Under the pieces are notes generated by a model. That model saw only the letters and a list, made by a program, of their open reading frames with translations. It was not told the DNA's origin and made no database searches. Shown here one piece after another: positions 9,920 to 31,935 of a stretch of 64,000 bases of DNA (the stretch's first letter is position 1; every line of letters begins with the position of its first letter). Both the position numbers and the translations under genes were made by a program. The DNA is from an uncultured Gammaproteobacteria bacterium. Lineage in GTDB: Bacteria > Patescibacteriota > Microgenomatia > Levybacterales > UBA12049. The stretch spans positions 118,993 through 182,992 of the forward strand of contig CAZWXQ010000001.1 of NCBI GenBank assembly GCA_964637955.1. The letters run 5' to 3'.

Positions 9920-9993
9920 CTCCTGATCTTTTCCTGGATTTTTCCTGACAATTTTCAGTTTTTAATCTTCCAAGATTATCCTATTCTCTAACT

Positions 9994-11744: not shown

Positions 11745-13221
11745 GATTGAAGAATTAAAAAAGAAAAGATCTGTCAGAAGAGCAATTTCAAAAAGAAGTC
11801 ATTACTGGTTTTTTTCAATATATTTAAATCACTACATTAAATATCCATTTGCTCAGTTTCACATTGAAATGTTTCACTTAACGGAAAACGAGGCTTTAAG
11901 GTTGGCAGTTCTTGTTGCATTTAGAGGATCTGGAAAATCCACTCTAATAACTCTTTCCTATGTAATCTGGTCAATAATTGGAGTTCAAAACAAGAAGTTT
12001 GTTTTAGTATTAAGTCAGACTCAGGCTCAGGCGAAACTACATTTAGCCAACATAAAAAGAGAGCTTGAGAGCAACGATTTATTAAAAGCAGATATAGGAC
12101 CGTTTGAAGAAATAAGTGATGAATGGGGTTCAAATTCAATAGTAATTTCAAAATTTGGAGCAAGAATTACTGTTGCTTCAACAGAACAAAGCATAAGAGG
12201 ATTAAGACATGGACAACATCGACCAGATTTAGTGATTTGTGATGATGTTGAAGACTTAAATTCAGTAAAGACTAAAGAAGGAAGAGATAAAACTTTCCAA
12301 TGGCTTGCTGGAGAAGTTTTGCCAATTGGAGATCAAAACACAAAAATAGTAATAGTTGGAAATCTTCTTCATGAAGATAGTCTCTTAATGAAATTAGTTA
12401 ATGCTATAAAAAATGGAAAATTAAATGGAAAATATTTTTCTTATCCTCTACTTGATGATGAAAATAATATTACATGGCCAGAGAAGTTTAAATCAAAGAC
12501 TGATATCGAAAATTTAAGAACTTCTATAGGAACAGATAGCGCATGGTATAGGGAGTATTTGCTTAAAATAATTTCAGATGCTGATAGGCTTGTTCATCCT
12601 GAATGGATTCAATATTACAATGAGATTCCTTCTGAGGAAAATGGGCATTTTATGTATACAGCTACAGGAATTGATCTTGCTATTTCAGAGAAAGAATCAG
12701 CAGATTATACAGCTATGGTGTCGGCCAAAGTTTATGGAAGCGGAGAAAATTTAAAGGTTTACATACTCCCTAACCCTATAAATAAAAGAATGAGTTTTCC
12801 AGAAACATATGAAACGGCTAAAATGATTTCTAAGGAATTAGGAAATGGATATTATACAAAGTTATTTATTGAAGATGTTGGCTATCAAAGAGCTTTAATT
12901 CAGAATTTATCTAATAATAATATTCCTGCTGAAGGGGTTAAGGTTTCTGGTCAGGATAAAAGAAGTAGACTTGCATTAGTTACTCATTTGATAGAGCAAG
13001 GAAAAATTATATTTCCCGATCAAGATAGATGTAGAAATTTGATACTACAACTTACTGGTTTTGGATTAGAAAAACATGATGATCTTGCAGATGCATTTTC
13101 TCTTCTAATGTTAAAAATAATTGAGGAAGATTCAGGAAGTGTAGGCTTCTTCTTTATAGGTGGTTCAGATCTATCTAGTTTTTCAGACTACAGACCCTTG
13201 AGCTTCAATCAGCCATTTTAA
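11728..13221 (+). CDS. Phage terminase large subunit (Walker A RGSGKST, Walker B VICDDVED, C-terminal nuclease region)
   Basis: Motif content and size typical of Terminase_6-type TerL. Confidence 0.8.
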   Translation: MLTQNEIEELKKKRSVRRAISKRSHYWFFSIYLNHYIKYPFAQFHIEMFHLTENEALRLAVLVAFRGSGKSTLITLSYVIWSIIGVQNKKFVLVLSQTQAQAKLHLANIKRELESNDLLKADIGPFEEISDEWGSNSIVISKFGARITVASTEQSIRGLRHGQHRPDLVICDDVEDLNSVKTKEGRDKTFQWLAGEVLPIGDQNTKIVIVGNLLHEDSLLMKLVNAIKNGKLNGKYFSYPLLDDENNITWPEKFKSKTDIENLRTSIGTDSAWYREYLLKIISDADRLVHPEWIQYYNEIPSEENGHFMYTATGIDLAISEKESADYTAMVSAKVYGSGENLKVYILPNPINKRMSFPETYETAKMISKELGNGYYTKLFIEDVGYQRALIQNLSNNNIPAEGVKVSGQDKRSRLALVTHLIEQGKIIFPDQDRCRNLILQLTGFGLEKHDDLADAFSLLMLKIIEEDSGSVGFFFIGGSDLSSFSDYRPLSFNQPF

Positions 13222-13424
13222 AAAAGATCAGATAGTTGAACTTTAAGAGCTTTGGAAATTTTATCAATTGTTTGAACCGGCGGATTACTTATACCCCTTT
13301 CGATTCTGGAAATTGTAGTATAGTGCAGGCCAACTCTATCAGCTAATTCTTCTTGTGACATTTTCTTGTCTCTCCTAGCTTTTCTAATTCTTTTACCTAG
13401 TTTTTCGTTAACTTTATATTTCAC
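13218..13424 (-). CDS. XRE-family HTH transcriptional regulator (Cro/CI-like)
   Basis: …MSQEELADRVGLHYTTISRIERG… canonical HTH_XRE. Confidence 0.8.
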   Translation of the reverse strand: MKYKVNEKLGKRIRKARRDKKMSQEELADRVGLHYTTISRIERGISNPPVQTIDKISKALKVQLSDLF

Positions 13425-13465
13425 TTATTAGTTATAAATTAATGAAAAACAGAAAGTTTGAGTAT

Positions 13466-13557
13466 AGCGTCAGACGCTTTATTTAGCCTTGACTTTATGC
13501 TTAAATATAAGTAATATGCCTTACGTAAGCACGAAATTAATAGAAAGGAGGTGAATT
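13466..13557. promoter_or_regulatory. Divergent control region: 13-bp palindrome AGCGTCaGACGCT (13466-13478), -35 TTGACT (13489-13494) / -10 TAATAT (13512-13517), 10-bp perfect palindrome CTTACGTAAG (13520-13529), RBS aaaggagg (13545-13552)
   Basis: Read from sequence between xre (minus) and ltp-like (plus). Confidence 0.5.
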
Positions 13558-14052
13558 ATGAACTGGATTAAAAAACATAAAATAGTGTCAGGAATTATTG
13601 GAGTTGTCGCATTTTTTATAATAGTTGGAGCTTTAGGTTCAAGCAGTACAACAACTAAATCAGAATCAACTAACTCTACTTCTGTCAAAAGTCAATCAAA
13701 TAATGCTGAACCAACAGCAACAATTGAAAACAAGCAGCCCAATGTTCCAGCGGAATATAAATCAGCACTCAAGAAAGCAACTAGCTATGCGACTATAATG
13801 CATATGTCAAAAAGAGGTGTATATGACCAGTTAGTCTCAGACTATGGTGAAAAGTTTTCGCCAGAAGCTGCACAGTATGCAATTGATAATGTGAAAGCTG
13901 ATTGGAATGCAAATGCTTTAGCTAAAGCAAAGAGCTATCAAGAGCAACAGAGTATGTCACCTGCTGCCATTCAAAATCAATTAATATCTGATTACGGTGA
14001 AAAGTTCACGCAAGCGGAAGCAGATTATGCTATTCAACACCTAAGTAAATAG
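13558..14052 (+). CDS. Ltp-family (host cell surface-exposed lipoprotein-like) protein with N-terminal TM anchor and two tandem Ltp repeats (…QLVSDYGEKFSPEAAQYAI… / …QLISDYGEKFTQAEADYAI…); candidate superinfection-exclusion protein
   Basis: Tandem repeat with conserved D-Y/F-G-E-K-F…A-x-YA motif characteristic of the Ltp superinfection-exclusion family; low-complexity linker. Confidence 0.6.
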   Translation: MNWIKKHKIVSGIIGVVAFFIIVGALGSSSTTTKSESTNSTSVKSQSNNAEPTATIENKQPNVPAEYKSALKKATSYATIMHMSKRGVYDQLVSDYGEKFSPEAAQYAIDNVKADWNANALAKAKSYQEQQSMSPAAIQNQLISDYGEKFTQAEADYAIQHLSK

Positions 14053-14325
14053 CGGGAGTTAGTAGTAGCTAAGCGGTGAAGCAAGAACAAGAAAAACATT
14101 CGATATTAAAATCGCATGTTTTTCTTTGGATTAAATATAGTATTTTAAGCCTAGACTTAATCAAAATCCTGCGGTACTGTGTACTCAAATGAATACAGAG
14201 GCAGGAATACTTAAGCTAATAACTAGATGCGAGAATTACTTCTATAAGTACCTCTTAACACAAGATAAATCATACATAGACAAATACTTTAAAACTTCAA
14301 GTCAACTCAAAAGAAAGGTTAAGAA

Positions 14326-15618
14326 ATGGAAAATGAAATAAAAGCACCCATAGATTACTGTTTGTATGCTCGAAAATCTACAGAAGATGATGAAAGACAA
14401 GCAATGAGTATAGATTCTCAAATTAAAGAGATGTCTGAAATGGCTTTAAAGGAAGAGATATTCATAAAAGAAATCCGACAAGAAAAGCATTCAGCGAAAA
14501 TGTCAGGGCAAAGGCCTGTTTTTAATCAGCTATTAGCAGATATAAAAAGTGGTATGTTTAGGGGAATATTAACTTGGGCGCCTGACAGGTTAAGCAGAAA
14601 TGCAGGAGATTTAGGCGTGCTTGTAGATTTAATGGATCATGGCAAGTTAACTAATATTAAAACATATACTCAGGCCTTCACAAATAGTCCTAGCGATAAG
14701 TTTTTACTCATGATTCTTTGCTCTCAAGCAAAACTCGAAAATGATCAGAAAGGAATAAATGTTAAAAGAGGGATAAGAGCCAAATGTCAGATGGGATGGA
14801 GACCTGGTGTTCCGCCAACAGGTTATTTTAATAGAACAATGAATGGGGTTAAAGATATAATCCCCGATCCTCAACGAGCTCCATTTATAACCGAAATGTT
14901 TCAAAGAGTTGCCGATGGACAAAGTGGTTGGGATATAAAAAGATGGTTTGATAAATCTGGAATGACTACTAGATCTGGAAAAAAAGTTTACTTAGGCAAT
15001 TTATATCTTATGCTGAAAAATTCATTTTATTATGGAGAATTTGAATACCCTATTAATAGTGGTAATTGGTATAAGGGAAAACATAAACCATTAATAACAA
15101 AAATTCTATTTGATAAAGTACAAAATCAGCTTATTACTTCAACTAAATCAGATTGGGGCAGTAATATTGCTCCATTCAAAGGATTATTTAGATGCGGAAC
15201 ATGTGGGAAAAAACTAATTGGCGAAGAAAAAATCAGAAAAAGAAAATGGGGAGCCCCCATAAGACATGTTTATTACCACTGTGCCCGAAACCTTAGTGAT
15301 TGCTCAGAGCCATATATAAGTGAGGAAAAATTAATAAAACAAATTCTTAGATATATTAATTTCATGAGTATCGCGCATCCTAATTTCCTCAAGCTAACAG
15401 ACCCTTTACATATAAGTTTGTTGTCATATAGCTTAATTAGAAATGAAGTACTTTATGAGCAAGATATTAATCCAAATGATCAAAAATCCGATCCGGTAAA
15501 TTTTAGTAGATATATTCTGAATAAAGGGTCCGTTGATGAAAAAAGAGACTTAGTTATGTCTTTAGGGAAGCAGATGTATATTAAAAATAAGTATTTGGTT
15601 TCCTCTGTATCTGAATAA
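14326..15618 (+). CDS. Large serine recombinase (resolvase catalytic domain YARKSTEDDERQ…, recombinase domain, zinc beta-ribbon CGTCGKK…HVYYHCAR)
   Basis: Domain organisation from translation. Confidence 0.85.
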   Translation: MENEIKAPIDYCLYARKSTEDDERQAMSIDSQIKEMSEMALKEEIFIKEIRQEKHSAKMSGQRPVFNQLLADIKSGMFRGILTWAPDRLSRNAGDLGVLVDLMDHGKLTNIKTYTQAFTNSPSDKFLLMILCSQAKLENDQKGINVKRGIRAKCQMGWRPGVPPTGYFNRTMNGVKDIIPDPQRAPFITEMFQRVADGQSGWDIKRWFDKSGMTTRSGKKVYLGNLYLMLKNSFYYGEFEYPINSGNWYKGKHKPLITKILFDKVQNQLITSTKSDWGSNIAPFKGLFRCGTCGKKLIGEEKIRKRKWGAPIRHVYYHCARNLSDCSEPYISEEKLIKQILRYINFMSIAHPNFLKLTDPLHISLLSYSLIRNEVLYEQDINPNDQKSDPVNFSRYILNKGSVDEKRDLVMSLGKQMYIKNKYLVSSVSE

Positions 15619-15684
15619 TTCATAAAATATTATCCTTAATTTGCCTCAATTCAATCTATAGGATAAAATGCTGCATATAAATTT

Positions 15685-16710
15685 ATGAATCATTTTGAAA
15701 GCAGCAATCTGGATAAAATTTTCTATCTTAATCCCAGTAAAAATCATTTAATAGGATCAAGAGAGTCGACCGTACTTGAATTTAAGGAAAATTTTTCTTT
15801 TGCAAATCTAGCGGATTACGCTAAAGTAATGGCTTCTTTTGCAAACAAAGATGGAGGCTATATAGTTTTTGGTTTAGAAGATAATCCTAGAAAGATTGTT
15901 GGAATCGATAGGAATACTTTCGATACTATTGATCAAGCCAAATTAACTGAGGGATTAAATGATATATTTCAGCCTGCAATGGAATGGGATATTGCAGTTC
16001 ATGATTGGAATGGATTTTCATTTGGAATAATTTATGTATTTAAGACTGTTCAAAAGCCTATCATTGCAAGAAAAAATTATGGTTCCGAAATTAAGGAAGG
16101 TGAAATTTATTATAGATATAGAGCTAGATCGGAGAAAATTAAATATTCTGAGTTGCGTCATTTACTTGATGAGCAAAAGGAGTTGACCAATGAAGCATGG
16201 AGAAAAGTTATAGAAAAGGCTTCATCGATCGATCCTAGAAATGTAGCTATGTTAGATACGATAACAGGTGAATTAACAGGAGATGGAGGAACAGTAGTAA
16301 TAGATGAGTCATTAATATCTAAATTGAAATTTATAAGGGATGGAGATTTTAATCAAAAAGATGGTGCTCCAACTCTTAAGCTTATAGGTGATCTTCAGGC
16401 TGTTCCTGTAGCAGCTGTAAAGAGTAAAAAAGTACTTATTGGGGAAGATATTTATAAATTTAGAGCTTCGCAGGTTGCAAAAGAAGTTCAGTCAGGTATA
16501 GCTAAAAATTTTAGTATTCAGCTACATACTAAGGCATGGAAAATGTATGAATCGAGACCTAAAGAGAAAAATTCGGGTTTTAAAAATGAATTTTCAGAAT
16601 TAAAGCAAGCCGAAAACGATTATCGATATTCTCAAGCATGGATCGATTTTCTGATAAATAAATTAAAAACTGATCAGGAATATCAAAAATTATTAGATTT
16701 CAAAATATAA
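15685..16710 (+). CDS. AlbA_2 (Schlafen-like putative DNA-binding, PF04326-like) domain protein (…EsTvLEFKEnfS…FANkDGGYIVFGLEDNpRKIVGI…)
   Basis: N-terminal motif set matches AlbA_2 domain; C-terminal region unassigned. Confidence 0.6.
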   Translation: MNHFESSNLDKIFYLNPSKNHLIGSRESTVLEFKENFSFANLADYAKVMASFANKDGGYIVFGLEDNPRKIVGIDRNTFDTIDQAKLTEGLNDIFQPAMEWDIAVHDWNGFSFGIIYVFKTVQKPIIARKNYGSEIKEGEIYYRYRARSEKIKYSELRHLLDEQKELTNEAWRKVIEKASSIDPRNVAMLDTITGELTGDGGTVVIDESLISKLKFIRDGDFNQKDGAPTLKLIGDLQAVPVAAVKSKKVLIGEDIYKFRASQVAKEVQSGIAKNFSIQLHTKAWKMYESRPKEKNSGFKNEFSELKQAENDYRYSQAWIDFLINKLKTDQEYQKLLDFKI

Positions 16711-19678: not shown

Positions 19679-22654
19679 TTACCTTATTTCTATATGTCTT
19701 GTAAGGATGTCATTTCTGATTTGATGAATTTTTTTATTTATGGCACTTGTTGGAACTAGTAAAGAATCTGTTGCAGGATCAAAATTAGGACTATCATAAA
19801 ATCCTTCTTCATTTAAGGACTTTTGACTAAAAGATCCACCTTTTGGAGAAATTCTATCAAGCGCGTCAGCATTATAATGCAATATTTTAACTGGCCTGTT
19901 TGGTTCAATCATTACTGCCATTCCACCAGTTACAGCCTGATAACCTAGACCCATTTCAAATGATGATTGTTTTGCTAAAGCAGGTGCAACTGCCATAAGT
20001 TTATGTTGATGAAGTAAAGCTTGAAAATGATGCCAATGTGCAAATAAAGCAATATTTATTTGTTCTGCAGTTAATCCTAAACCTCTTAATAAGTCTATTG
20101 CTTGGTAGACCGGCATGCCAGGAGTTGCCCCCTTGCCACCTTTACCTAAAATTTTATGTTGTCCTGCAACTAGAATTTCACCTACTTTATCTAATGCTAA
20201 ATGTGAATCAAGAAAATCTCCTTCACGTGTTAGAATTCTCTCTGATATAGATACCCTAGGATCATTTCGGTCAACTCCGTACCAATCCCTGAATGACATA
20301 TCTGTTTCTCTTACACCATTTATTCCTGTTTTGTCATAACTACTCCCATCAAACTCGTGATTTCCAACTGCACCAACTATCTTTTCAATAAGTCCTTGAA
20401 TCTGTCTGTGCGAAAGATCAGAAGTGGTACCTTTTAGGACTGCATCAAACATGTCAAATTGATCAGGAACTCTATGTAGACCTAATGCAGGGGCTTCATT
20501 CATGAACTTAGAATAAACTGTTGCCCCGTGAGTTAAATCTCCAAGAGGCATCAATCTTACATGTCCTCTATTTGGTAGGTCTTTAACAACATGTCTAACC
20601 CAGTGAATTCCTCTTCTAAAATCTGTAGTGGGTGAACCAATTTGCCAATCATTTAATGTAGCATAAATCGTTGTTTCTGGAACTGATTCGGATAAAGCTA
20701 ATAATTTTTCGTCAAAAAAACTAACCTCCATTACACCATCCTTAAGAGAAGTCATAATAGCTCCTGGCTCTGAAGGGCGTCCTCTTGTATAAAGTGCTCT
20801 CATTGCTGGGTTTTTACCCGATTGTGCATACATTCCCTGCTGATCTATAACATCTCTACTACTAACCATTCCGGGTAAATCCATAATGGCTCCGTGTCTT
20901 GTTGCAGTTATTATCCCTTCATAATTTCCCGTTCCTACTAATAGATCGGGCACAAGCTCTCCATTAATTACCAATTCTTTAGAAATCATCGTTGGAATTC
21001 TCATGATTTCTTGATGAATAGTTGGGCCATCCATTTTAAATCTATTTCTTACCCACTGAGTAACTTCTGAATCTTTTTTACTTTGCATGCTTATATTTGC
21101 TCCATCAGTAACGGTAAAACTATCCCTTAACCACGGCCCGGGGATATTGTTAACATCTACAATTTGTTGAAATGCTGCAGGAACTATCTCTGCTGGAATG
21201 AAAGCTTCATCTTCTTCATGTGCTTCCCATGCTATACTTAACGCTTGATGTGCTTCCCAAAGCATAAGATACTCTTCCATTCTGATTCCCCCTTTAGTAA
21301 AAGCTTCTACTTCATCAGCAGACTTAAGTCCTCTGCCGTTTCTTAGCATGTATTCAAAAACTACATCATGCTCAAATATTTTATGCATCGGATATTCTCT
21401 ACTTGATTCAATCTTATGAATATCTTCAAAAGTCATATAGCTTCCTTTCTCAGAATCTCTTAATGGATTCGCAGCACTTCTAATTACTTTAACTGCTTCA
21501 ATTGCGCCATCTCTAATATGATTTCTATCGTTAACGCCCATCACGTATATAATTGGAACTCCAATTTCCCTAAGCATTTCGATAAGCTCTTTTGAGGCTC
21601 TAAATTGATCTTCTGAGCTGGAAAGAGAAAGACCTACAGTCGCATCTACGTTTGTATGCTTATGGGTGCCTTCTACAATATTTCCAACTACGATAGCGTC
21701 TGGTCTTTCTTTTTCTGGTAATTCCTTTACTGTTTCAATAACTTGTTTTACGAATCTTGAGTCACTTACTGAGGATCCAGTAATAATCCCATCAAGCCAA
21801 AGTGTTCTATTTTTTTTGCTTGATTTTATCTCTACATCAGGTACTCTGAATCTATCTCTTGATGCATCTTGAGCTGTAATCACATCATCCCAAGATTCAA
21901 TTGGTTTATGAGATGTGCTAAGCGCATCGCTTGAAGCAAATACACCTTTTAGCTCCCAGAAGCCCAACGCATGTCTCTTTTTACCTATAGATGTTAATTT
22001 AATTGTTCCTTTTGCGGTTGTTCTAATATATCCAGTTTCATCAAATGAGCTTATTATTTGAGTAACTAAATCTAATGGTATTTCTCTAAATCTTTCGGAA
22101 ACTGCATCTTTGATTTCATCTGCCGTTTTCGCACCTGAACTCAATTGGTCTTTTATAACAGATCCTACTTTATTGTATATATCCGGAGGAACTATATTTA
22201 TGAGTTCTGCATTTATTCTTGTTTTATCTATAGCTTGATCTTCACCCTCGTGTAAATCATGTTCCTGAGTGCTAGTTCTGATCAAATCAAGCGCAGCATC
22301 AAATGTAGAATTCGAGTCAGATTCTAAAGATTCTTGAGGCATTGAGCCATCAGGTTCAGGGGTTGAAACTGATGGCTCCTCAGTAATTAAAGGTAATTCA
22401 ATTTGTTCTCCTTCGATTATAATCTGTTCAGGATCACCTAAGATTTGACCTTCTAAAACAACTTGAGTAAATGCTGGAAACATTAAATCTGCACCTTCTA
22501 AAGATTCACCAAGCATTAAATATAGGGGATCTGGGTTTAGAGCTAATGGACTTAACATGCTTGAGTCATCGATACCAGTGGTGATTTCAACGGGTGGGGA
22601 AGATGGTATAGTTGCTAAAATTGGATCAATATTGCCTTTATCTCTTTCAGTCAT
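19679..22654 (-). CDS. Large (991 aa) protein with acidic low-complexity N-terminus and two calcineurin-like metallophosphoesterase-like modules (module 2: GDLTHG … GNHEFDG … FAHWHH; module 1 degenerate: DGIITGS … GNIVEG … GVNDRNH)
   Basis: MPP signature motifs read from translation; no family-level match recognised. Confidence 0.5.
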   Translation of the reverse strand: MTERDKGNIDPILATIPSSPPVEITTGIDDSSMLSPLALNPDPLYLMLGESLEGADLMFPAFTQVVLEGQILGDPEQIIIEGEQIELPLITEEPSVSTPEPDGSMPQESLESDSNSTFDAALDLIRTSTQEHDLHEGEDQAIDKTRINAELINIVPPDIYNKVGSVIKDQLSSGAKTADEIKDAVSERFREIPLDLVTQIISSFDETGYIRTTAKGTIKLTSIGKKRHALGFWELKGVFASSDALSTSHKPIESWDDVITAQDASRDRFRVPDVEIKSSKKNRTLWLDGIITGSSVSDSRFVKQVIETVKELPEKERPDAIVVGNIVEGTHKHTNVDATVGLSLSSSEDQFRASKELIEMLREIGVPIIYVMGVNDRNHIRDGAIEAVKVIRSAANPLRDSEKGSYMTFEDIHKIESSREYPMHKIFEHDVVFEYMLRNGRGLKSADEVEAFTKGGIRMEEYLMLWEAHQALSIAWEAHEEDEAFIPAEIVPAAFQQIVDVNNIPGPWLRDSFTVTDGANISMQSKKDSEVTQWVRNRFKMDGPTIHQEIMRIPTMISKELVINGELVPDLLVGTGNYEGIITATRHGAIMDLPGMVSSRDVIDQQGMYAQSGKNPAMRALYTRGRPSEPGAIMTSLKDGVMEVSFFDEKLLALSESVPETTIYATLNDWQIGSPTTDFRRGIHWVRHVVKDLPNRGHVRLMPLGDLTHGATVYSKFMNEAPALGLHRVPDQFDMFDAVLKGTTSDLSHRQIQGLIEKIVGAVGNHEFDGSSYDKTGINGVRETDMSFRDWYGVDRNDPRVSISERILTREGDFLDSHLALDKVGEILVAGQHKILGKGGKGATPGMPVYQAIDLLRGLGLTAEQINIALFAHWHHFQALLHQHKLMAVAPALAKQSSFEMGLGYQAVTGGMAVMIEPNRPVKILHYNADALDRISPKGGSFSQKSLNEEGFYDSPNFDPATDSLLVPTSAINKKIHQIRNDILTRHIEIR

Positions 22655-22866: not shown

Positions 22867-23850
22867 ATGGAAATTAGAAATTTACAGAAGACTGGAGGAG
22901 CAAGTTATACAATAATACTTCCTAAGGACTGGGTTAAATCGCTTAATTTAAATGAAAAAGATAAGGTTGAAATTTTTAAGCAAAAGAAAGACCAATTAGC
23001 AATTAGACCTCAAAGAGAAAAGAGAGAACTGTCTTCAACTATCTACGTAGATTCTTATTCTAAAGAAAGAATTTTAAGAGAAATAATTGCATTATATTTA
23101 TCAGGTGTTATGGAAATTAATGTCAGGAGTCAAATGTATTCAAATGAACTAAGATCAACAATTAGAGAAGTTTCATATAAGTTAGCAGGTTTTGAAATAT
23201 TTGATACTACATCAAATAATCTAATACTTAAGAATGTTGCTGAAAATAGAATTTCAGTTGTTGAGTATATCGGTAAGATGATAAGAATTATCAATTCTAT
23301 GTACGCTGATATGGAGAATGTTCTTTTTGAAAATGATAAATTACTGGCAAAAGATATTATAGATAGAGACGTAGAGGTAGATAGAATCGAATTAATTACT
23401 ATACGTGAATTTAACATATTACTTAATTCCCTTTATCCGTCTGAAAATTCTGACATATTCCTTTTAGAAAAACATTATTATGAACACGTGGCAATAAGGC
23501 TTGAAAGAATTGCAGATCATATAGTTAGAATTGCGATGACTACACTTCAACTAAATAAATCTGAAAAAATTGTTTTAACTAAATCTGAAAAAGACAGAAT
23601 CAAGAGAGTGCATAGATACCTAGATCAAGCAAATCTTATAATTCAAAATCTGGATAGATTAAAAGCACACGATTTACTAGATGAATTAGACCATATAAAT
23701 AAGAACGCATTTATAAATAAAGAAATCTCAAAAAAATCATCTATTAATATATTGATTGAGGATAGTATTGAAAGGATAAGGAGCTATATATCAAATATTG
23801 CAGAAGAAACAATAAATTATGATTCAATTAAGAGAAGTATTGCTTATTAG
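22867..23850 (+). CDS. AbrB/MazE-type swapped-hairpin DNA-binding domain fused to PhoU-like domain (putative phosphate-responsive regulator)
   Basis: N-terminus …KTGGASYTIILPKDWVKSLNL… (SpoVT/AbrB-like); remainder shows PhoU-like repeated helical motifs (D.DVEVDRIE…, RLERIADHI…). Confidence 0.55.
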   Translation: MEIRNLQKTGGASYTIILPKDWVKSLNLNEKDKVEIFKQKKDQLAIRPQREKRELSSTIYVDSYSKERILREIIALYLSGVMEINVRSQMYSNELRSTIREVSYKLAGFEIFDTTSNNLILKNVAENRISVVEYIGKMIRIINSMYADMENVLFENDKLLAKDIIDRDVEVDRIELITIREFNILLNSLYPSENSDIFLLEKHYYEHVAIRLERIADHIVRIAMTTLQLNKSEKIVLTKSEKDRIKRVHRYLDQANLIIQNLDRLKAHDLLDELDHINKNAFINKEISKKSSINILIEDSIERIRSYISNIAEETINYDSIKRSIAY

Positions 23851-24965: not shown

Positions 24966-25538
24966 TTAAAGTCTACCTGAAATTAAGTCTCTAACATTAT
25001 TAAATCTTTCTTCTTTTGTGCCACTTAGTAGCTCATAAGGAATTTTATATTTAGCAAAAAAATCTAGAAAACCTTGATGAACTTTATTTCTAGTAATTTC
25101 AGATTCTCTTCTTCCTAAGTTTGGTTCAAAGGGTACGCCCTCAGGGTCGAGTAACAATATTTGTTGATATGTAGGAAGCCAAAATTCTACATTTGCCAGT
25201 AATTCTTCTGCGCCTTCTATATCTCCAAATGCAAATAAATGAGCAGGTGAATCTAATACAGATCTGTCACAAATTATCACTTCAGGATTTTTCTCATTTG
25301 CAGATTGTTCTCTTGAGAGAATAATTCCCTGTAGTTCTTTCTGAATGGTTGGCGAAAAAATTAAGTGCTCAGGAAGATTTGGACGGGCTTCAAAATAAGG
25401 TCTTCCTGATTCTTCTATGAAAATTATATTTGGATTATCTAAGTAATGTTCTTTTAGTGCATTAAAAGTTGTGGTTTTCCCAGTACTTGCTGCCCCTACG
25501 AGTGCATATTTATTAAGCATTACTTTTTTTGGACTCAT
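24966..25538 (-). CDS. AAA_28/NadR-C-like P-loop ATPase/kinase (GAASTGKTT)
   Basis: Walker A and size/fold pattern similar to the NadR kinase-domain family. Confidence 0.5.
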   Translation of the reverse strand: MSPKKVMLNKYALVGAASTGKTTTFNALKEHYLDNPNIIFIEESGRPYFEARPNLPEHLIFSPTIQKELQGIILSREQSANEKNPEVIICDRSVLDSPAHLFAFGDIEGAEELLANVEFWLPTYQQILLLDPEGVPFEPNLGRRESEITRNKVHQGFLDFFAKYKIPYELLSGTKEERFNNVRDLISGRL

Positions 25539-25540
25539 AA

Positions 25541-27703
25541 TTATCTTCCAAATCTATTAGTTATATCCCTAAGTCTTTTTAATTTGTAAGTTGGTTTTGC
25601 TCCGTAAGGATCAATTTCTTCTTCAGTTATTAAAGCAGTTTTAAGCCCAAGAGCATTTCCTGCAATAATATCGTCTTCCTGTTTATCTCCTACATATAAT
25701 ACCCGATCAGAAGCTGCTATGCCCAGTAGCTCAAGTGCTTTTGCAATTGGTTCAGGATGAGGTTTTCTTCTATCAACGTTATCTCTAGTAATAATTACAT
25801 CAAAATATTTTTCAATATCATATCTTTTCAAACTTCTCATAAGAGAATTTATTCTGCGCGTAGTAACAATTCCCATTTTTTTACCTGATTTTTTGAGTGT
25901 CTCAAGCATTTCTACTGTATCTTCGGAGAGCGTAAAATAATGATCCAGAGTTCCAGAAACTTCTTTATTTACTGCCTCAATTTCTTCTTCGGTAATTGGA
26001 TTTTCAGAGCTTTTTTCAGAGTGCATTCTCGCCATAATTTTAACCATTTCTTTCCAATCACTTCTATTTCCAATTTCTATAATTTCTTCATCGCTGAAAA
26101 ATAGACCCATACGCAAGCTAATCTCTTTCATTCTTGCTGCTAGTTCTTCCTTATCTCCAAACTGGAGAGTGTTATCAAAGTCAAAAAGCACCGCATCAAT
26201 TGCATGCGCATCATCAAGAATTCCTCGTTCAACTTTCTGTCTGAGCTCCCGGTATCTTATAGCAGCTTCCTGGGCATTTTTTGGAGCATCGCCGACATAA
26301 TCTCTTGGTCTTAGGGTAAGTAGAGCCTGTCTTTTTTCGGGATCTTGAATTGTACTCATGACAAGATCTTGATACTGGGTTCTATTGAGACGTTTTCCTT
26401 GTGTTGCATCTTTTATTTGCATGTAACTCCCAGGATTTCCTTCCATCCTAAGCGCTAGTTGAATAGCTTCAGCAAAAATTTCATAATGTCTTTCTAATTC
26501 AGCTTCAGTAATTTCGGTATCAATTCTGACTTGCGCTAAGTCATCTGCAATATAAGCTAGTCCTGCTAGGCTCATTCCAAGCATTTCTCCATAGCCTCTT
26601 TCCCATGCATGATCATGAGAATCTCTTTCCAAATCAGTTTTAATCAGTCCATCAGCTGCGCCATTAATTAAATTTGAACTTTTGTCTAAAGTTCCTCTTC
26701 CTGTTTCGAATCTCCAGGGATTTGGGGCTTTATGTGCCATAACCGAAGAGCCGATCTGACCAGGTCGTGGTGCTAAAAATACATGATCTTGAAGGATATA
26801 AAGTCCTACATTTTCAGCAAGACTTACTGCGATTGTATTCATTGTTTTTATTTGATGAAGGAAATCTACAATATCAATATGATTATTGGTTTGATTTGTT
26901 GTCTCAAGATACGTAAATCCAAACCTTTCGACGAAATCTCTACTAAATGCTCTGTAGTCAAAGTCTGGTGCTAAAACTGAGATTGCATTGTTATTTCCAA
27001 CTGCTCCCGAAAATTTTGCCCCCAATCTAACTTTGCCCATTTCCTCTACTTCCTTCATCATTTTTTCTAAGTGCTCAGAAAATCTTTTTCCATAGGTGGT
27101 TGGAGAAGCAGCTTGATAATGAGTCCTTCCAAGAACGGGAGTATCTTTATGCTCCTCTGCAAGTAAAGCTAATCTATCCATGATTCCTACTGCTTGAGGT
27201 AACCACGCTTCATTTATAGCGTCTCGAAACATGAGGTTAAGTGCAACATTATTTATATCTTCAGAAGTAACTGCAAAATGAATCCATTCCTTCAGATGGC
27301 CATTTCCGCTAGCATCGAATAGCTCTCCTAAGTATAGTTCTACTGATTTAACATCATGTTCAGTTGGATACTTTCTCTGTTCTTCTTCTTGACCATCTTT
27401 TAATCTTCCAATATGGTCATACTCCGTGACAATTTTTGGATCAAATACATCTGGAGAAGTAAGTCCTCGAAGATTTGATTTAGTCATTTCATCTATTTCG
27501 GGTTTTCCTGGGAAATCACTTTCAGATAGCGCAATCAAAGCTTCAACTTCTATAATTGCTCTATATCGGTGGAACGCTCCTTCTGAAAGAATTGGAGCTA
27601 TCTCTCGGGTAAATGGAGCGTCTCTTCCATCAACTGTTGAGACCTGGTCGAGACTTCTGGTATAAATTTCTTCTCTCGCTCTCAGATCTTTCTCTGCTGA
27701 CAT
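25541..27703 (-). CDS. purB: Adenylosuccinate lyase (long E. coli-type PurB; signature GSSVMAHKAPNP) fused to C-terminal HAD-superfamily hydrolase domain (DFDNT … KPHPEP … GDKQEDD)
   Basis: N-terminal ~470 aa align by eye to E. coli PurB including HF(A/C)xTSEDINN and SSxMxxKxNP; C-terminal ~230 aa carry HAD motifs I-IV. Confidence 0.7.
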   Translation of the reverse strand: MSAEKDLRAREEIYTRSLDQVSTVDGRDAPFTREIAPILSEGAFHRYRAIIEVEALIALSESDFPGKPEIDEMTKSNLRGLTSPDVFDPKIVTEYDHIGRLKDGQEEEQRKYPTEHDVKSVELYLGELFDASGNGHLKEWIHFAVTSEDINNVALNLMFRDAINEAWLPQAVGIMDRLALLAEEHKDTPVLGRTHYQAASPTTYGKRFSEHLEKMMKEVEEMGKVRLGAKFSGAVGNNNAISVLAPDFDYRAFSRDFVERFGFTYLETTNQTNNHIDIVDFLHQIKTMNTIAVSLAENVGLYILQDHVFLAPRPGQIGSSVMAHKAPNPWRFETGRGTLDKSSNLINGAADGLIKTDLERDSHDHAWERGYGEMLGMSLAGLAYIADDLAQVRIDTEITEAELERHYEIFAEAIQLALRMEGNPGSYMQIKDATQGKRLNRTQYQDLVMSTIQDPEKRQALLTLRPRDYVGDAPKNAQEAAIRYRELRQKVERGILDDAHAIDAVLFDFDNTLQFGDKEELAARMKEISLRMGLFFSDEEIIEIGNRSDWKEMVKIMARMHSEKSSENPITEEEIEAVNKEVSGTLDHYFTLSEDTVEMLETLKKSGKKMGIVTTRRINSLMRSLKRYDIEKYFDVIITRDNVDRRKPHPEPIAKALELLGIAASDRVLYVGDKQEDDIIAGNALGLKTALITEEEIDPYGAKPTYKLKRLRDITNRFGR

Positions 27704-27760
27704 ATGAGGCGATTATATTGCTGCTCCAGTCCAAAGTCAACGAATCTCACTAGTATCGCC

Positions 27761-29155: not shown

Positions 29156-30616
29156 ATGGATAAAAACAAAACAATTGAACAATTCCCCCCTGTAGTAGCT
29201 GTACTTGGTCACGTTGATCATGGGAAAACCACGCTTTTAGATACAATCAGAAAAACTTCTATCGCCGATCGTGAGCATGGTGGAATCACCCAAAAAATTG
29301 GAGCATCATCTGTAGAAATTGATCATGAAGGTAAAAAAAGAAGAATTACTTTTATAGACACGCCAGGACATGAGGCTTTTGCAAAAATGAGAGGGCGTGG
29401 TGCCCAAGCTGCAGACATAGGACTTCTCATAGTTTCTGCAGTGGACGGCGTAATGCCTCAAACAAAGGAAAGTATTTCACTTCTTAAAGCCTCAGGTGTC
29501 CCATATATAGTAGTGCTAACCAAAATTGATTCTCCAGAAAAAAATCCTGAAAAAGCCAAAAAGCAATTGGCAGTTGAAGAAGTTATGATTGAGGGTTATG
29601 GTGGAGATGTGCCTGTAATCGAAATTTCAGCAAGAACTGGTGAAAACATAAAAGAGTTACTAGATTTGATTCTTCTTGTGAACGATTTACATCCAAAAGA
29701 AGCAGACGTAAATCTAGATTCGCCTCTTAAAGCAATTGTTATTGAATCCAAGCAAGATCCTAAGGCTGGGCCTAAGGCTAGTATAGTTATAAAAAATGGA
29801 AAACTAGCTGTAAGAGATGATATAACTACAGGAAAAGTGAGCGGTCGAGTTAGAAGTCTAATTGCTGATTCTGGAGTTCAGATTAAAGAAGCAGGCGTGG
29901 GTGAAGCTGTGGAAATATTAGGTTTTAATGAGGCTCCAAGCGTGGGTGATGTTGTCTACAAAGTCCCCTCCGACGCTAGAGCTATGGCGGGCAGGTCTGA
30001 GAGCGATCATAATGCTGTTAGCGAAGCTAAGGTTAAAGAAAAGCATGATGATGAGTCTATATCATTAATTTTGGTTGCTGACACTCTAGGCTCTCTTGAG
30101 GCAATTGTGGCTTCGCTTCCAGCAAAATTAAACATTATTTCTAAGAAAACAGGAGAAATTTCACTTGCAGACGTGCTTATGGCTAAATCCATAGGTGCAT
30201 TAGTTCTCGGTTTTAACATAAAAATTAAGCCTGAAGTAGCAAAGCTTGCATTAACTGAAAAAGTCTTAGTTAAGAACTACACAATTATCTATGAAATGCT
30301 TCAAGAAATTGAAGATGTAGTTGAAGGAAAACGCGTTTCGCTTCTCGAGGAAATATATGGTGTAGCTAAAATTCAAGCTTCATTTCCATTCGATAAGCAG
30401 ATTGTCATGGGTGTAAAGGTGCTTGAGGGTCGCGTGGCAAAAGGAGATAAGGTTAGGATAGAGCGTGGAGAAGAGATAATTGGCGAGGGTCATATAAATT
30501 CTGTTAGAGCTGGAAAAGATCAAACCTCAAAAGTAGAATCCCCAAATGAGGCAGGTATTATAGTAGGGCCTGCACTTGACTTTCAGGTAGGGGATATGGT
30601 AATATCCCATAGCTAA
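29156..30616 (+). CDS. infB: Translation initiation factor IF-2, short form (G domain GHVDHGKTTLLD…DTPGHEAF)
   Basis: GTPase motifs and domain order; follows nusA. Confidence 0.88.
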   Translation: MDKNKTIEQFPPVVAVLGHVDHGKTTLLDTIRKTSIADREHGGITQKIGASSVEIDHEGKKRRITFIDTPGHEAFAKMRGRGAQAADIGLLIVSAVDGVMPQTKESISLLKASGVPYIVVLTKIDSPEKNPEKAKKQLAVEEVMIEGYGGDVPVIEISARTGENIKELLDLILLVNDLHPKEADVNLDSPLKAIVIESKQDPKAGPKASIVIKNGKLAVRDDITTGKVSGRVRSLIADSGVQIKEAGVGEAVEILGFNEAPSVGDVVYKVPSDARAMAGRSESDHNAVSEAKVKEKHDDESISLILVADTLGSLEAIVASLPAKLNIISKKTGEISLADVLMAKSIGALVLGFNIKIKPEVAKLALTEKVLVKNYTIIYEMLQEIEDVVEGKRVSLLEEIYGVAKIQASFPFDKQIVMGVKVLEGRVAKGDKVRIERGEEIIGEGHINSVRAGKDQTSKVESPNEAGIIVGPALDFQVGDMVISHS

Positions 30617-30735: not shown

Positions 30736-31935
30736 ATGGATATTCAAAGATTAAAAGACATTTTTGAAAAAGCTGGCACATATGCTATTGTTGTGGGTCA
30801 AAACTACACAATAGACGAAATGGGCTCAGCCCTCTCTATTTATTTAACTCTTAAATCACTTGGTAAAGATGTAAGCGTGATTTCAGGAAAAGAACCACTT
30901 GTTGAAGTTTCAAATTTAGTTGGAATTGACAGCGTAAAATCAAGCTTTGAATCAGCTTCTGGAGATCTTATAGTTTCATTTCCATATCAACAGGATGAAA
31001 TTGGAAAAGTTTCATATACTCTTGAGGATGGTTTATTAAACATTATAGTAAAACCAAAAGACCAGCCTCTTTCATTCGGTGAAAAGGATGTTATTTTCAA
31101 AAGAAGTGGAAGTAATCCAGAAGTTATTATTACCGTTGGTGTTAAGAGAATATCAGAGCTTCAAACTTTCTTTGATGTTCAATCCCTTAAGGATACAACT
31201 ATTATAAATATAGATAGAGCAGGAAATAATGAAGGGTTTGGAGATGTAGTTATAGTTGGTCAGGGTGCTTCGTCTGTTTCTGAGCAAGTAGCAAACCTTA
31301 TGCTTTCACTAGGATACCCACTTGACGCAGATATTTCTCAAAACCTTATAGGTGGAATAGTAGCTTCAACTGGAAATTTCCAGAGTCCAAGAACAAGTTC
31401 GCTTGCATTTGAAATGGCTGGAATACTTCTTAGAAATGGTGCTAAAAGAGAAGCTTTAAGATCACAAAATCCAGGACAAACTAGAACTCCACAGCAGTTT
31501 GGATATAACATGACTGGAGATAATCAGCCACAAATCCCACCAATGCCATCAATGCCAGGTCTTCCACCTATGCCGAGACCACAAATGAATCAACCAAGAC
31601 AACAACAGGCAAGAGCCCAAATGCCGAGACCACAACGTGCTCCTATGCCAAGACCACAAATACCACCTATGCCTAGCTCACAGAGGAGTCCATTAGATGA
31701 CGATCAATTACCACCACCACCTATGCCAAGGTCTCAAAAAAGTCCAATAGATGATGATCAAATGTCACCTATGAGCCAAAATGATAAGATAAATCAAATT
31801 AACCAACAGCTCTCAAGTATGAGTGGAGACTATCAAAAAGAGGCAAAAATAGATGATGCACCAATTGACACCCCAGATGCGCCGCCAGATTGGCTCGCAC
31901 CAAAAATCTTCAAAGGATCTACAACAGTTGAGTAA
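30736..31935 (+). CDS. DHH/DHHA1-like (NrnA-like) protein with degenerate DHH catalytic motifs and a C-terminal Pro/Met/Gln-rich repeat tail (PPMPSMPGLPPMPRPQMNQPRQQQ…)
   Basis: Overall NrnA-like topology and DHHA1-like GGGH-equivalent region (IGGIVAS); canonical DHH/PDGD residues replaced (GQNYTIDEMGS). Confidence 0.45.
   Translation: MDIQRLKDIFEKAGTYAIVVGQNYTIDEMGSALSIYLTLKSLGKDVSVISGKEPLVEVSNLVGIDSVKSSFESASGDLIVSFPYQQDEIGKVSYTLEDGLLNIIVKPKDQPLSFGEKDVIFKRSGSNPEVIITVGVKRISELQTFFDVQSLKDTTIINIDRAGNNEGFGDVVIVGQGASSVSEQVANLMLSLGYPLDADISQNLIGGIVASTGNFQSPRTSSLAFEMAGILLRNGAKREALRSQNPGQTRTPQQFGYNMTGDNQPQIPPMPSMPGLPPMPRPQMNQPRQQQARAQMPRPQRAPMPRPQIPPMPSSQRSPLDDDQLPPPPMPRSQKSPIDDDQMSPMSQNDKINQINQQLSSMSGDYQKEAKIDDAPIDTPDAPPDWLAPKIFKGSTTVE

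What the first reader, a model, noticed from the sequence alone, without database searches (positions are those of the whole stretch)
24966..27703. Adenylosuccinate lyase fused to a HAD phosphatase domain, adjacent to an AAA_28 (NadR-kinase-like) ATPase
A 720-aa ORF: the first ~470 aa are an E. coli-type PurB (with MAHK instead of MPHK in the signature loop), and the last ~230 aa carry all four HAD motifs (DFDNT, T, KPHPEP, GDKQEDD). PurB is normally a stand-alone enzyme. A fused phosphatase could dephosphorylate the AMP/AICAR product or act in a salvage variant, consistent with reduced purine biosynthesis in small genomes. The neighbouring NRK/NadR-like P-loop gene also points to nucleotide or nucleoside salvage.
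Basis: partly seen in the sequence, partly recalled or inferred. Interest (0 to 1): 0.5.

Follow-up and report, generated by a model that had tools for sequence, protein, structure and literature searches.

The report
Adenylosuccinate lyase–phosphatase fusion with kinase partner
A real, conserved gene in tiny-genome (Saccharibacteria-like) bacteria joins the last enzyme of AMP synthesis to a phosphatase and is co-transcribed with a small nucleoside-kinase-like gene. The same lyase–phosphatase pairing has arisen independently several times in reduced-genome bacteria and archaea, which points to an uncharacterised purine-salvage module.

Summary
Window 25541-27703 (-) is one uninterrupted 720-aa ORF: an E. 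coli-type adenylosuccinate lyase (Lyase_1 + ASL_C, residues 1-484) joined by a confidently modelled helix to a complete HAD-IA phosphatase (498-720). A 190-aa AAA_28 gene follows after 2 nt. It is not an artefact: about 40 protein clusters share the architecture down to 39% identity, 24 GTDB species genomes carry it, and an independent assembly encodes the identical protein.

New findings:
- The AAA_28 gene lies directly downstream in 16 of 21 informative loci. It has a nucleoside/nucleotide-kinase fold.
- The lyase belongs to a distinct clade, called PurB* here. Its catalytic residues are intact, but its 5'-phosphate/ribose pocket is rebuilt (Y16→E/D/H, S340→H, I305→W, and in the window's branch N90→E and Q334→E).
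- PurB* is tied to a HAD phosphatase in at least three independent fusions, involving two different HAD subfamilies. One is a PurB*–PurA–HAD triple fusion. There are also HAD|PurB*|PurA operons.

Best reading: a purine-salvage node on the IMP→AMP branch, coupled to nucleotide dephosphorylation and nucleoside rephosphorylation. The phosphatase substrate and the order of steps are inferred, not shown. It is a new variant of known enzymes, of moderate interest.

The parts
25541..27703 (-). Fusion gene, 720 aa: PurB*-type adenylosuccinate lyase + HAD-IA phosphatase (the stop codon is 25541-25543)
26252..27703 (-). Lyase domain (residues 1-484; Lyase_1 + ASL_C). Catalytic H195 (Ec H171), S319 (S295), K325, N328, Q271, H116/D117 and T146/S147 are conserved. 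The phosphate/ribose pocket is changed: D28 (Ec Y16), E115 (N90), W330 (I305), T334 (N309), E359 (Q334), H365 (S340).
   Evidence: ligand roles from PMC2917274
26702..26752 (-). Catalytic 'signature' loop GSSVMAHKAPNPWRFET. It has P→A and a 1-aa insertion relative to GSSTMPHKVNPIDFEN. It is the only low-confidence internal segment of the model (residues 322-325), as expected for the mobile loop.
26200..26285 (-). Domain junction (residues ~473-501), a conserved helix plus 'RGxLDxxxxIDAVLFDFD'. There is no frame shift and no low-complexity linker.
25544..26212 (-). HAD-IA phosphatase domain, 'type A' (residues 498-720). Motif I is DFDNT (26168-26182), motif II VTTR, motif III RRKPHPEP, motif IV GDKQEDD. 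A helical C1-type cap lies between motifs I and II.
24966..25538 (-). AAA_28 P-loop protein (190 aa) with a nucleoside/nucleotide-kinase fold. Its ATG lies 2 nt after the fusion's stop codon, with GGAAGA upstream. It is a conserved operon partner.
27712..27740 (-). Promoter-like site TTGACT-17-TATAAT (11/12) directly upstream of the fusion's ATG (27703), in the divergent region shared with nusA. This is a consensus match only.

Best explanation
The locus is a two-gene purine-salvage operon of a reduced-genome (Patescibacteria/Saccharibacteria-like) bacterium.

Gene 1 encodes a genuine bifunctional protein. Its N-terminal domain is a diverged E. coli-type adenylosuccinate lyase (clade PurB*). 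It cleaves the N6-succinyl adduct made by adenylosuccinate synthetase (PurA), releasing fumarate and completing the IMP→adenine-nucleotide branch. Its rigidly attached C-terminal HAD-IA domain is a Mg-dependent phosphomonoesterase. This most likely removes the 5'-phosphate of the purine nucleotide handled by the lyase, namely the AMP product (AMP→adenosine).

Gene 2 (AAA_28) is a small nucleoside/nucleotide kinase that rephosphorylates nucleosides. Together, lyase, nucleotidase and kinase form an interconversion and homeostasis node between purine nucleotides and nucleosides.

What is shown: the architecture, its conservation, intact catalytic residues in both domains, the operon link to the kinase-fold protein, and the recurrent linkage of PurB* to HAD and to PurA.

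What is inferred: the lyase substrate, the phosphatase substrate, the order of the two steps, the kinase substrate, and the presence of PurA elsewhere in this genome.
For: 1. Real fusion. The model has pLDDT 89 and pTM 0.84 with an ordered junction.

2. Lyase identity:
- ASL_C domain and a full-length PRK09285 alignment.
- Foldseek top hits are E. coli ADL 3GZH/2PTR/2PTQ, TMt 0.89-0.93.
- H171, S295, H91, D92, K94, T122, S123, Q247, K301, N303, R335 and R344 are invariant in 39/39 fusion proteins.

3. Link to the IMP→AMP branch:
- HAD|PurB*|PurA operons in L025/L027, where PurA scores 520 bits against a cutoff of 402 and is not PurZ.
- PurA|PurB*|HAD in L083.
- PurA, PRPP synthetase and SNase near the N-fused P0041.
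- A PurB*–PurA–HAD triple fusion (P0390) and a PurB*–PurA fusion (P0395).

4. Phosphatase coupling is selected for, not accidental:
- All four HAD motifs are invariant across the family.
- Two unrelated-looking HAD-IA subfamilies (A and B) are attached in C-terminal, N-terminal and triple-fusion forms.
- Every HAD-fused lyase has H340, and all but one have W305. All 121 ordinary PurB representatives have S340/I305 and no HAD.

5. Kinase partner:
- It lies directly downstream in 16/21 loci, with a -4 to +10 nt gap from plausible starts, while no other neighbour is conserved.
- A profile search hits the NadR RNK domain 1LW7 (2.6e-7) and thymidylate kinase.
- The model (pLDDT 86) matches deoxyadenosine kinase 2JAT, NadR and TMP kinases.
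- Acidimicrobiales orthologs are paired with an inosine-uridine nucleoside hydrolase in 7/7 places.
Against: - The window's lyase domain scores below NCBIfam's adenylosuccinate-lyase equivalog cutoffs (329.7 vs 446; 186 vs 326).
- Residues that bind the AMP 5'-phosphate in solved PurBs (Tyr, Ser, Asn; PMC2917274) are replaced by Asp, His and Thr. Two further neutral residues near the ribose-phosphate become Glu. If the phosphatase simply acted on released AMP, it is not obvious why the lyase pocket should have changed.
- No purA was found in the 64-kb window or in any of the 24 fusion loci. Its presence in these genomes is therefore unverified.
- A nucleotidase plus a nucleoside kinase on the same substrate would form a futile cycle.
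- No HAD family with a known substrate reaches its cutoff.
- No literature or experimental data were found.
Confidence: 0.5

Rival explanations
1. Reversed order with shifted specificity. The HAD domain first dephosphorylates adenylosuccinate. PurB* has lost 5'-phosphate recognition and cleaves the nucleoside succinyladenosine to adenosine + fumarate. The AAA_28 kinase then makes AMP from adenosine.
For: The pocket changes fall exactly on the 5'-phosphate ligands and track perfectly with HAD association. In the window's branch three neutral residues near the ribose-phosphate become acidic (Y16→D/E, N90→E, Q334→E), which should disfavour a phosphate dianion. A nucleoside kinase downstream would then be a productive next step and not a futile one.
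Against: R15 and R344, the two arginines that bind the phosphate, are invariant, and a His is gained, so phosphate binding may persist in a new geometry. Type-B-linked PurB* still passes the PurB equivalog cutoff. The route would cost an extra ATP for no obvious gain over the canonical one. No structure with ligand is available.
Confidence: 0.2
2. The lyase is an ordinary PurB, and the HAD domain has a role unrelated to the lyase's product. It could be a general housekeeping or 'damage-control' phosphatase, a pyrophosphatase (PpaX-like), or a non-catalytic or regulatory appendage.
For: The best HAD family matches are generic (CTE7, PpaX, phosphoglycolate phosphatase), all below cutoff. HAD-IA specificity cannot be read from sequence. 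HAD genes are common neighbours in small genomes; for example, L041 has a HAD gene upstream of a canonical PurB.
Against: Independent fusions in both orders, with two HAD subfamilies, and a PurB*–PurA–HAD triple fusion are hard to explain without functional coupling. Catalytic HAD motifs are invariant. Lyase phosphate-pocket changes co-vary with HAD linkage.
Confidence: 0.17
3. In the Saccharibacteria-type operon the AAA_28 P-loop protein functionally replaces PurA. It would activate a purine 6-oxo group (on IMP or inosine) for aspartate addition and so supply the lyase substrate.
For: Operon position: type-B lineages have PurA next to or fused with PurB*. Type-A lineages never do (0/24 loci) and instead have AAA_28 (16/21). 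None of the top 120 Saccharibacteria PurA clusters lies on a contig matching a fusion contig (a weak test).
Against: AAA_28 has a kinase-class fold (dNK/TMPK/RNK), not the PurA/SIMIBI-type ligase fold. At 190 aa it has no evident aspartate site. Acidimicrobiales with full purine pathways also carry it, next to a nucleoside hydrolase. PurA may simply lie elsewhere in the genome. The contig-length test only sees cluster representatives.
Confidence: 0.05
4. Artefact or misassignment: two genes joined by a sequencing or assembly error, or the N-domain is another fumarate-lyase family member (argininosuccinate lyase, CMLE, fumarase).
For: None beyond the sub-threshold PurB equivalog score.
Against: The same architecture appears in ~40 clusters and 24 species genomes, and in an independent assembly. 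The junction is conserved and ordered. The ASL_C domain is specific to E. coli-type PurB. Other lyase models score far lower, 58-68 bits against cutoffs of 356-595. The nearest structures are all ADLs.
Confidence: 0.02

Closest known systems
E. coli-type adenylosuccinate lyase PurB (EC 4.3.2.2; PDB 2PTS/2PTQ/2PTR, 3GZH; NCBIfam NF006764/PRK09285)
   Same: Same fold (TMt 0.89-0.93, ~28-30% identity) and the same Lyase_1 + ASL_C domains. It keeps the catalytic His171/Ser295 pair and the base/succinyl-binding residues (H91, D92, T122, S123, Q247, K301, N303, R335). Relatives are clustered or fused with PurA.
   Different: It scores below the equivalog cutoff (330 vs 446). The catalytic loop has P→A and a 1-residue insertion. 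Phosphate-pocket residues Y16, N309 and S340 are replaced (D, T, H), with extra changes I305→W, N90→E and Q334→E. It carries a C-terminal HAD domain.
HAD-IA phosphatases (TIGR02253 'CTE7' subfamily, PpaX pyrophosphatase, phosphoglycolate phosphatase e.g. PDB 2NYV/2YY6, YjjG-type nucleotidases)
   Same: All four HAD motifs are present, with the DxD motif I typical of phosphatases and mutases. It has a helical C1 cap and the HAD_2/Hydrolase_like Pfam signatures.
   Different: It reaches no curated family cutoff (best 101 vs 170). Its cap sequence is distinctive ('FGDKEEL…NRSD…VSGTxDH'). It is covalently attached to a lyase. Its substrate is unknown.
NadR ribosylnicotinamide-kinase domain (PDB 1LW7, 8X7F) and deoxynucleoside/thymidylate kinases (2JAT, 4S35)
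   Same: The AAA_28 partner shares the P-loop kinase fold, the Walker A motif, an acidic residue after strand 2 and a DR(S) motif. It aligns with the RNK domain over its full length.
   Different: It has no NMN-adenylyltransferase or HTH domains. The NadR model scores 19.9 against a cutoff of 341. Identity is only ~16-23%. The substrate is unknown.
Other purine-branch gene fusions found here: PurB–PurA (P0395, P0506), PurC–PurB (P0458), PurB*–PurA–HAD (P0390), HAD–PurB* (P0041, P0387)
   Same: They share the same logic of fusing enzymes that handle the same purine ribotide. P0390 contains all of the window protein's parts plus PurA.
   Different: The window's version lacks PurA, uses a different HAD subfamily (type A vs type B), and is paired with AAA_28 instead.
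Eukaryotic HAD-superfamily purine 5'-nucleotidases (cN-II, ISN1) and the AMP/adenosine substrate cycle with adenosine kinase (from general knowledge)
   Same: This is a functional analogy: a nucleotidase and a nucleoside kinase acting around the IMP/AMP node to balance purine pools.
   Different: There is no close sequence relationship (Pfam 5_nucleotid 21.9 bits, below its cutoff of 28.5). Those enzymes are free-standing and allosterically regulated.

Membership tests
Adenylosuccinate lyase, E. coli type (PurB) | Fumarate-lyase fold with the ASL_C C-terminal domain | tested here: met
   Pfam Lyase_1 101 bits and ASL_C 64 bits, both above cutoff. Foldseek TMt 0.89-0.93 to 3GZH/2PTR/2PTQ.
Adenylosuccinate lyase, E. 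coli type (PurB) | Catalytic acid His171 and catalytic Ser295 in the GSSxMPxKxNP loop | tested here: met
   H195 and S319 are present and invariant in 39/39 family members, as are K325 and N328. The loop itself is altered, though: MPHKVNP→MAHKAPNP, with a 1-aa insertion.
Adenylosuccinate lyase, E. coli type (PurB) | Canonical 5'-phosphate ligands (Ec R15, Y16, N309, S340, R344; roles from SaPurB, PMC2917274) | tested here: not met
   R27 and R369 are kept. Y16→D28, N309→T334 and S340→H365. The Y16 and S340 replacements are clade-wide.
Adenylosuccinate lyase, E. coli type (PurB) | Score at or above the curated equivalog cutoff | tested here: not met
   NF006764 329.7 < 446; TIGR00928 186.3 < 326.2. 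Relatives L027 (477.7) and P0390 (544.1) do pass.
Adenylosuccinate lyase, E. coli type (PurB) | Works with adenylosuccinate synthetase (PurA) in the same genome | tested here: inconclusive
   PurA is adjacent or fused in relatives. None was found in the 64-kb window or in the 24 fusion loci. The rest of the genome is not available.
Adenylosuccinate lyase, E. coli type (PurB) | Cleaves adenylosuccinate and SAICAR to fumarate + AMP/AICAR | not testable with these tools
   This needs an enzyme assay or complementation.
HAD superfamily, subfamily IA phosphatase | Four catalytic motifs (DxD nucleophile/acid, S/T, K, DD) and a helical C1 cap between motifs I and II | tested here: met
   D508/D510, T614/T615, K647 and D673/D678 are invariant or nearly so. 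HAD_2 scores 110 bits. Helices 517-605 lie between motifs I and II in the model.
HAD superfamily, subfamily IA phosphatase | Assignment to a subfamily with known substrate (PpaX, PGP, YjjG, CTE7...) | tested here: not met
   All are below cutoff: CTE7 101/170, PpaX 92.5/218, PGP 68.7/180, YjjG 56.7/160.
NadR / ribosylnicotinamide kinase (AAA_28) | AAA_28 P-loop kinase domain | tested here: met
   PF13521 70 bits. A profile search hits the 1LW7 RNK domain at 2.6e-7 over its full length. Fold matches to 8X7F/1LW7/2JAT.
NadR / ribosylnicotinamide kinase (AAA_28) | NadR architecture (HTH + NMN adenylyltransferase + RNK) or equivalog-level similarity | tested here: not met
   It is a single 190-aa domain. 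TIGR01526 scores 19.9 against a cutoff of 341. All 190 family members found are ~185-aa single-domain proteins.
Anti-phage defence systems (PADLOC) | Match to a known defence protein model | tested here: not met
   No hit for the fusion. There is only a marginal 14-bit P-loop hit for AAA_28.

The most novel reading that the evidence does not exclude
PurB* would not be a conventional adenylosuccinate lyase. It would be a re-specified enzyme whose rebuilt, more acidic 5' pocket no longer accepts a 5'-phosphate. The attached HAD domain would first strip the phosphate, and the lyase would then act at the nucleoside level (succinyladenosine → adenosine + fumarate). The co-transcribed AAA_28 kinase would return the product to the nucleotide pool. 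This would be a previously undescribed 'nucleoside-level' branch of purine interconversion in CPR bacteria and DPANN archaea. In the most extreme version, the AAA_28 protein substitutes for PurA in lineages that lack it.
Probability: 0.2. Interest if true: 0.75.

Novelty: new variant of a known kind. Interest (0 to 1): 0.5.

Why it matters
CPR bacteria and DPANN archaea cannot make purines de novo and depend on what they take from their hosts. How they balance adenine and guanine nucleotides is largely inferred from annotation.

This analysis defines a distinct, uncharacterised clade of adenylosuccinate lyase whose phosphate pocket has co-evolved with an attached or adjacent phosphatase. That pairing was invented at least three times, and once together with PurA in a single 1219-aa polypeptide. 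In Saccharibacteria-type genomes it is paired with a dedicated small kinase.

If the coupling is catalytic, it would reveal either a built-in nucleotide/nucleoside valve or a new reaction order at the IMP→AMP branch. That could be a point of host dependence in epibiotic bacteria.

It also matters for annotation. These proteins are currently labelled variously 'adenylosuccinate lyase', 'lyase family protein' or 'HAD-IA family hydrolase', and metabolic reconstructions that count them as plain PurB may be wrong.

Tried and rejected
- **Frame error or artificial fusion:** rejected.
- **Other fumarate-lyase family:** rejected.
- **Defence system:** PADLOC gave nothing meaningful.
- **AAA_28 as a chance neighbour:** my first BLAST found it in only 3 of 24 loci. 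That was an artefact of low sensitivity. Clustering and an HMM raised it to 16 of 21.
- **PurZ-type (2-aminoadenine) pathway:** the PurA partners score 85-131 against a PurZ cutoff of 300, and they pass the PurA cutoffs.
- **purA co-occurrence test:** I matched contig lengths between PurA hits and fusion hits and found no overlap. The column describes only each cluster's representative, so this test is weak and I do not rely on it.
- **Literature:** five searches and one supplement search found nothing on PurB-HAD fusions or on adenylosuccinate enzymes in Saccharibacteria/CPR/DPANN. The E. coli ADL structure papers (PMC4113493, PMC2795585) are not held, so ligand roles come from the S. aureus PurB paper and were mapped through conserved motifs.
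- **RNA scans:** Rfam and tRNA scans of the window gave no hits.
- **Other pur genes in the window:** none found.
- **One HAD family for all architectures:** rejected. There are two subfamilies, no closer to each other than to a control HAD.
Full report
**What is in the window.** Coordinates 25541-27703 (minus strand) hold one uninterrupted 720-aa ORF. A 190-aa ORF follows on the same strand at 24966-25538. The ATG of the second gene lies 2 nt after the first gene's stop codon, with GGAAGA just upstream. Pfam finds Lyase_1 (119-338), ASL_C (358-470) and HAD_2 (505-691) in the large protein, and AAA_28 in the small one. NCBIfam's E. coli-type PurB model (PRK09285) aligns over residues 16-479 at 329.7 bits, below its equivalog cutoff of 446. 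HAD models such as CTE7, PpaX and phosphoglycolate phosphatase match residues ~500-715, all below their cutoffs. A near-consensus promoter-like site (TTGACT-17-TATAAT) abuts the start codon in the divergent region shared with nusA. The window is ~35% G+C.

**The fusion is real.** A search of 5.8 billion proteins returned about 41 clusters with the same Lyase_1 + ASL_C + HAD architecture at ~99% coverage and 39-66% identity. Several are labelled Saccharibacteria or Saccharimonadales. A scan of one genome per GTDB species found 24 loci encoding it, mostly Saccharibacteria MAGs. An independent short-read assembly (Logan SRR14271332) encodes the identical 720-aa protein followed by the AAA_28 gene. 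An AlphaFold model built from 26 family members has mean pLDDT 89.3 and pTM 0.84. The junction (residues 473-501) is a confident helix. The only poorly predicted internal stretch (322-325) is the catalytic loop, which is known to be mobile in PurB (PMC2917274). The junction sequence 'RGxLDxxxxIDAVLFDFD' is conserved.

**The N-domain is a PurB, but a special one.** Foldseek places the model on E. coli, Legionella, Salmonella and Plasmodium adenylosuccinate lyases at TMt 0.89-0.93. Other lyase-superfamily members score far lower. I confirmed E. coli numbering against PDB 2PTS, then aligned 39 fusion proteins with 79 ordinary E. coli-type PurBs.
- The catalytic and base/succinyl-binding residues are invariant in the fusion clade: H171, S295, S296, H91, D92, K94, E97, T122, S123, Q247, K301, N303, R335, R344 and R15.
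- A set of residues that never vary in ordinary PurBs is replaced throughout the clade: Y16→E/D, N90→E, T246→N, I248→R, E249→N, D252→L/I, I305→W, Q334→E and S340→H. There is also a one-residue insertion after K301.
- In the window protein these positions are D28, E115, W330, T334 (for N309), E359 and H365.
- The S. aureus PurB-AMP structure paper lists the AMP phosphate ligands as Arg4, Tyr5, Asn276, Ser306 and Arg310, and places the ribose O2' contact at residue 67 (PMC2917274). Through the shared motifs (ERY/GRY, RHD/NHD, HKxNPxxxEN, RDxxxSxxxR) these correspond to E. coli R15, Y16, N309, S340, R344 and N90.

So the chemistry-performing residues are kept, while the 5'-phosphate/ribose pocket is rebuilt. 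I call this clade PurB*.

**PurB* is tied to PurA.**
- Two archaeal-context loci (neighbours SBDS and Rrp4) carry HAD | PurB* | PurA operons. Their PurA scores 520 bits against a cutoff of 402 and is not PurZ. Their PurB* scores 478 bits and passes the PurB equivalog cutoff.
- An unfused PurB* with the full window-type signature (P0040) lies in PurA | PurB* | HAD order.
- The N-terminally fused P0041 has PurA, PRPP synthetase and an SNase nuclease nearby.
- An exhaustive HMMER search of 1.84 billion representatives, followed by Pfam scans, revealed P0390. This is a 1219-aa PurB*–PurA–HAD triple fusion whose lyase part scores 544 bits. The same searches found the PurB–PurA fusions P0395 and P0506 and the PurC–PurB fusion P0458.

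This anchors PurB* in the IMP→adenylosuccinate→AMP branch.

**The phosphatase link is recurrent and independent.**
- HAD domains occur C-terminal to PurB* (the window and many others), N-terminal (P0041, P0042, P0387, P0388, P0399), after PurA in the triple fusion, and as separate adjacent genes (L018, L025, L027, L083).
- They fall into two HAD-IA subfamilies. Type A covers the window, all 24 GTDB fusion loci and split L018. Type B covers N-fusions, some C-fusions, the triple fusion and the separate genes. The two types are no more similar to each other than to an unrelated control HAD. That implies at least three independent fusion events.
- Across the 150 best representatives, every HAD-fused lyase has H340, and all but one have W305. 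All 121 ordinary PurBs have S340/I305 and no HAD.
- A distance tree places all HAD-associated lyases apart from canonical PurBs. Canonical PurBs from other Saccharibacteria (L041, L048) fall with the ordinary ones.

Changes in the lyase's phosphate pocket therefore co-vary with having a phosphatase partner.

**The AAA_28 gene is a conserved partner.** My first BLAST suggested only 3 of 24 loci. Clustering and an HMM then showed a ~185-aa AAA_28 gene immediately downstream on the same strand in 16 of the 21 loci that have downstream sequence. The gap is -4 to +10 nt from plausible starts, and no other neighbour is conserved. The family has an invariant Walker A motif, an invariant Glu after strand 2, and DR(S) and RxE motifs. 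Its profile hits the ribosylnicotinamide-kinase domain of NadR (1LW7, 2.6e-7, full length) and thymidylate kinase. A confident model (pLDDT 86, pTM 0.81) matches deoxyadenosine kinase, NadR and thymidylate kinases. The family is small, with 190 proteins, all single-domain. In Acidimicrobiales its orthologs are convergent with, and overlap, an inosine-uridine nucleoside hydrolase gene in 7 of 7 places. PADLOC finds no defence association. It is not a NadR ortholog (19.9 bits against a cutoff of 341).

**How it most likely works.** What is shown is a conserved operon encoding a lyase-phosphatase fusion and a kinase-fold protein. The lyase is catalytically intact and belongs to a clade that works with PurA. 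The phosphatase is catalytically intact and has been selected repeatedly as a partner. What is inferred is the mechanism:
- The lyase cleaves adenylosuccinate.
- The HAD domain removes the 5'-phosphate of the purine nucleotide concerned, most simply AMP→adenosine.
- The kinase rephosphorylates nucleosides.

Together these give a valve between the nucleotide and nucleoside pools at the IMP/AMP node of a salvage-only organism.

The main rival reverses the order, with the phosphatase acting first and PurB* acting on succinyladenosine. It explains why the phosphate pocket changed and why three acidic residues appear there. However, both phosphate-binding arginines are retained, and the route looks wasteful. 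A generic, uncoupled phosphatase is harder to reconcile with the repeated fusions.

The idea that AAA_28 replaces PurA rests only on operon position (PurA next to type-B lineages, AAA_28 next to type-A) and on a weak contig-length test. Its kinase-class fold argues against it.

**What remains open.** No purA was seen in the window or in any fusion locus. I could not scan the full genomes. No paper on this architecture, or on adenylosuccinate enzymes in CPR/DPANN, was found in the library. HAD and kinase substrates cannot be read from sequence.

**Verdict.** The object is a new variant of known enzymes: an uncharacterised PurB*–HAD bifunctional family with a dedicated kinase partner. It is of moderate interest, rising substantially if the remodelled pocket turns out to reflect a nucleoside-level reaction.

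Noticed in passing
window 8658-16710: A run of mobile-element or prophage-like genes: a LexA-like repressor (8658-9263), a ParB-N-terminal + N6/N4 DNA methylase (9994-11349), a terminase large-subunit-like protein (11728-13221), a large serine recombinase (14326-15618) and a Schlafen/AlbA_2 protein (15685-16710). This may be an integrated element in a CPR-like genome.
   Followed up: no
window 62288-63562 (-): A divergent member of the thymidine/pyrimidine-nucleoside/AMP phosphorylase family (Glycos_transf_3 + Glycos_trans_3N + PYNP_C, low scores). It is the kind of enzyme used in the archaeal/CPR AMP-degradation (pentose bisphosphate) route. It is another purine/nucleoside salvage gene but is 35 kb from the fusion.
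   Followed up: no
window 1-64000: No tRNA, tmRNA, rRNA or any Rfam family reaches threshold in 64 kb. That is somewhat unusual for a compact bacterial genome.
   Followed up: partly
window 19679-22654 (-) and 22867-23850 (+): A 991-aa protein has only a weak C-terminal calcineurin-like phosphoesterase hit and a long acidic N-terminal region. Next to it is an unusual AbrB/MazE-type DNA-binding domain fused to a PhoU domain. Neither is conserved next to the fusion in other genomes.
   Followed up: no
window 29156-30616 (+) and 30736-31935 (+): The IF2-like gene after nusA encodes only 486 aa and starts directly at the GTPase domain, so it lacks the usual N-terminal region. The next gene (399 aa) has a very Pro/Gln/Met-rich repetitive C-terminal half and no Pfam hit.
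   Followed up: no
window 47075-48667 (+): A 530-aa protein has three GerE/LuxR-type HTH stretches in one chain, an unusual repeated-HTH architecture.
   Followed up: no
window 27712-27740 (-): A near-perfect sigma-70-like promoter match ends only ~9 nt before the fusion gene's ATG. If it is functional, the mRNA would be leaderless or nearly so.
   Followed up: no
L084-L090 (Acidimicrobiales contigs): The AAA_28 ortholog is always convergent with, and overlaps the 3' end of, an inosine-uridine-preferring nucleoside hydrolase gene. A D-Ala-D-Ala carboxypeptidase gene lies upstream.
   Followed up: partly
L025 6879-7961 (+); L082 3986-6034 (+): Genes of unknown function with no Pfam hit sit inside or beside the HAD/PurB*/PurA clusters: a 360-aa ORF between HAD and PurB* in L025, and a 682-aa ORF between the HAD–PurB* fusion and PurA in L082.
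   Followed up: no
P0454 (956 aa), P0405 (777 aa): These PurB-like proteins have duplicated or permuted domain order, with ASL_C preceding a second Lyase_1. They are possibly tandem PurB duplications or assembly chimeras.
   Followed up: no
L018 3045-3497 (-); L023 6888-7535 (-): In fusion loci that lack the AAA_28 gene, other nucleotide-related genes lie divergently upstream: a nucleoside 2-deoxyribosyltransferase-family protein in L018 and an AAA_33/zeta-toxin-type P-loop kinase in L023.
   Followed up: partly
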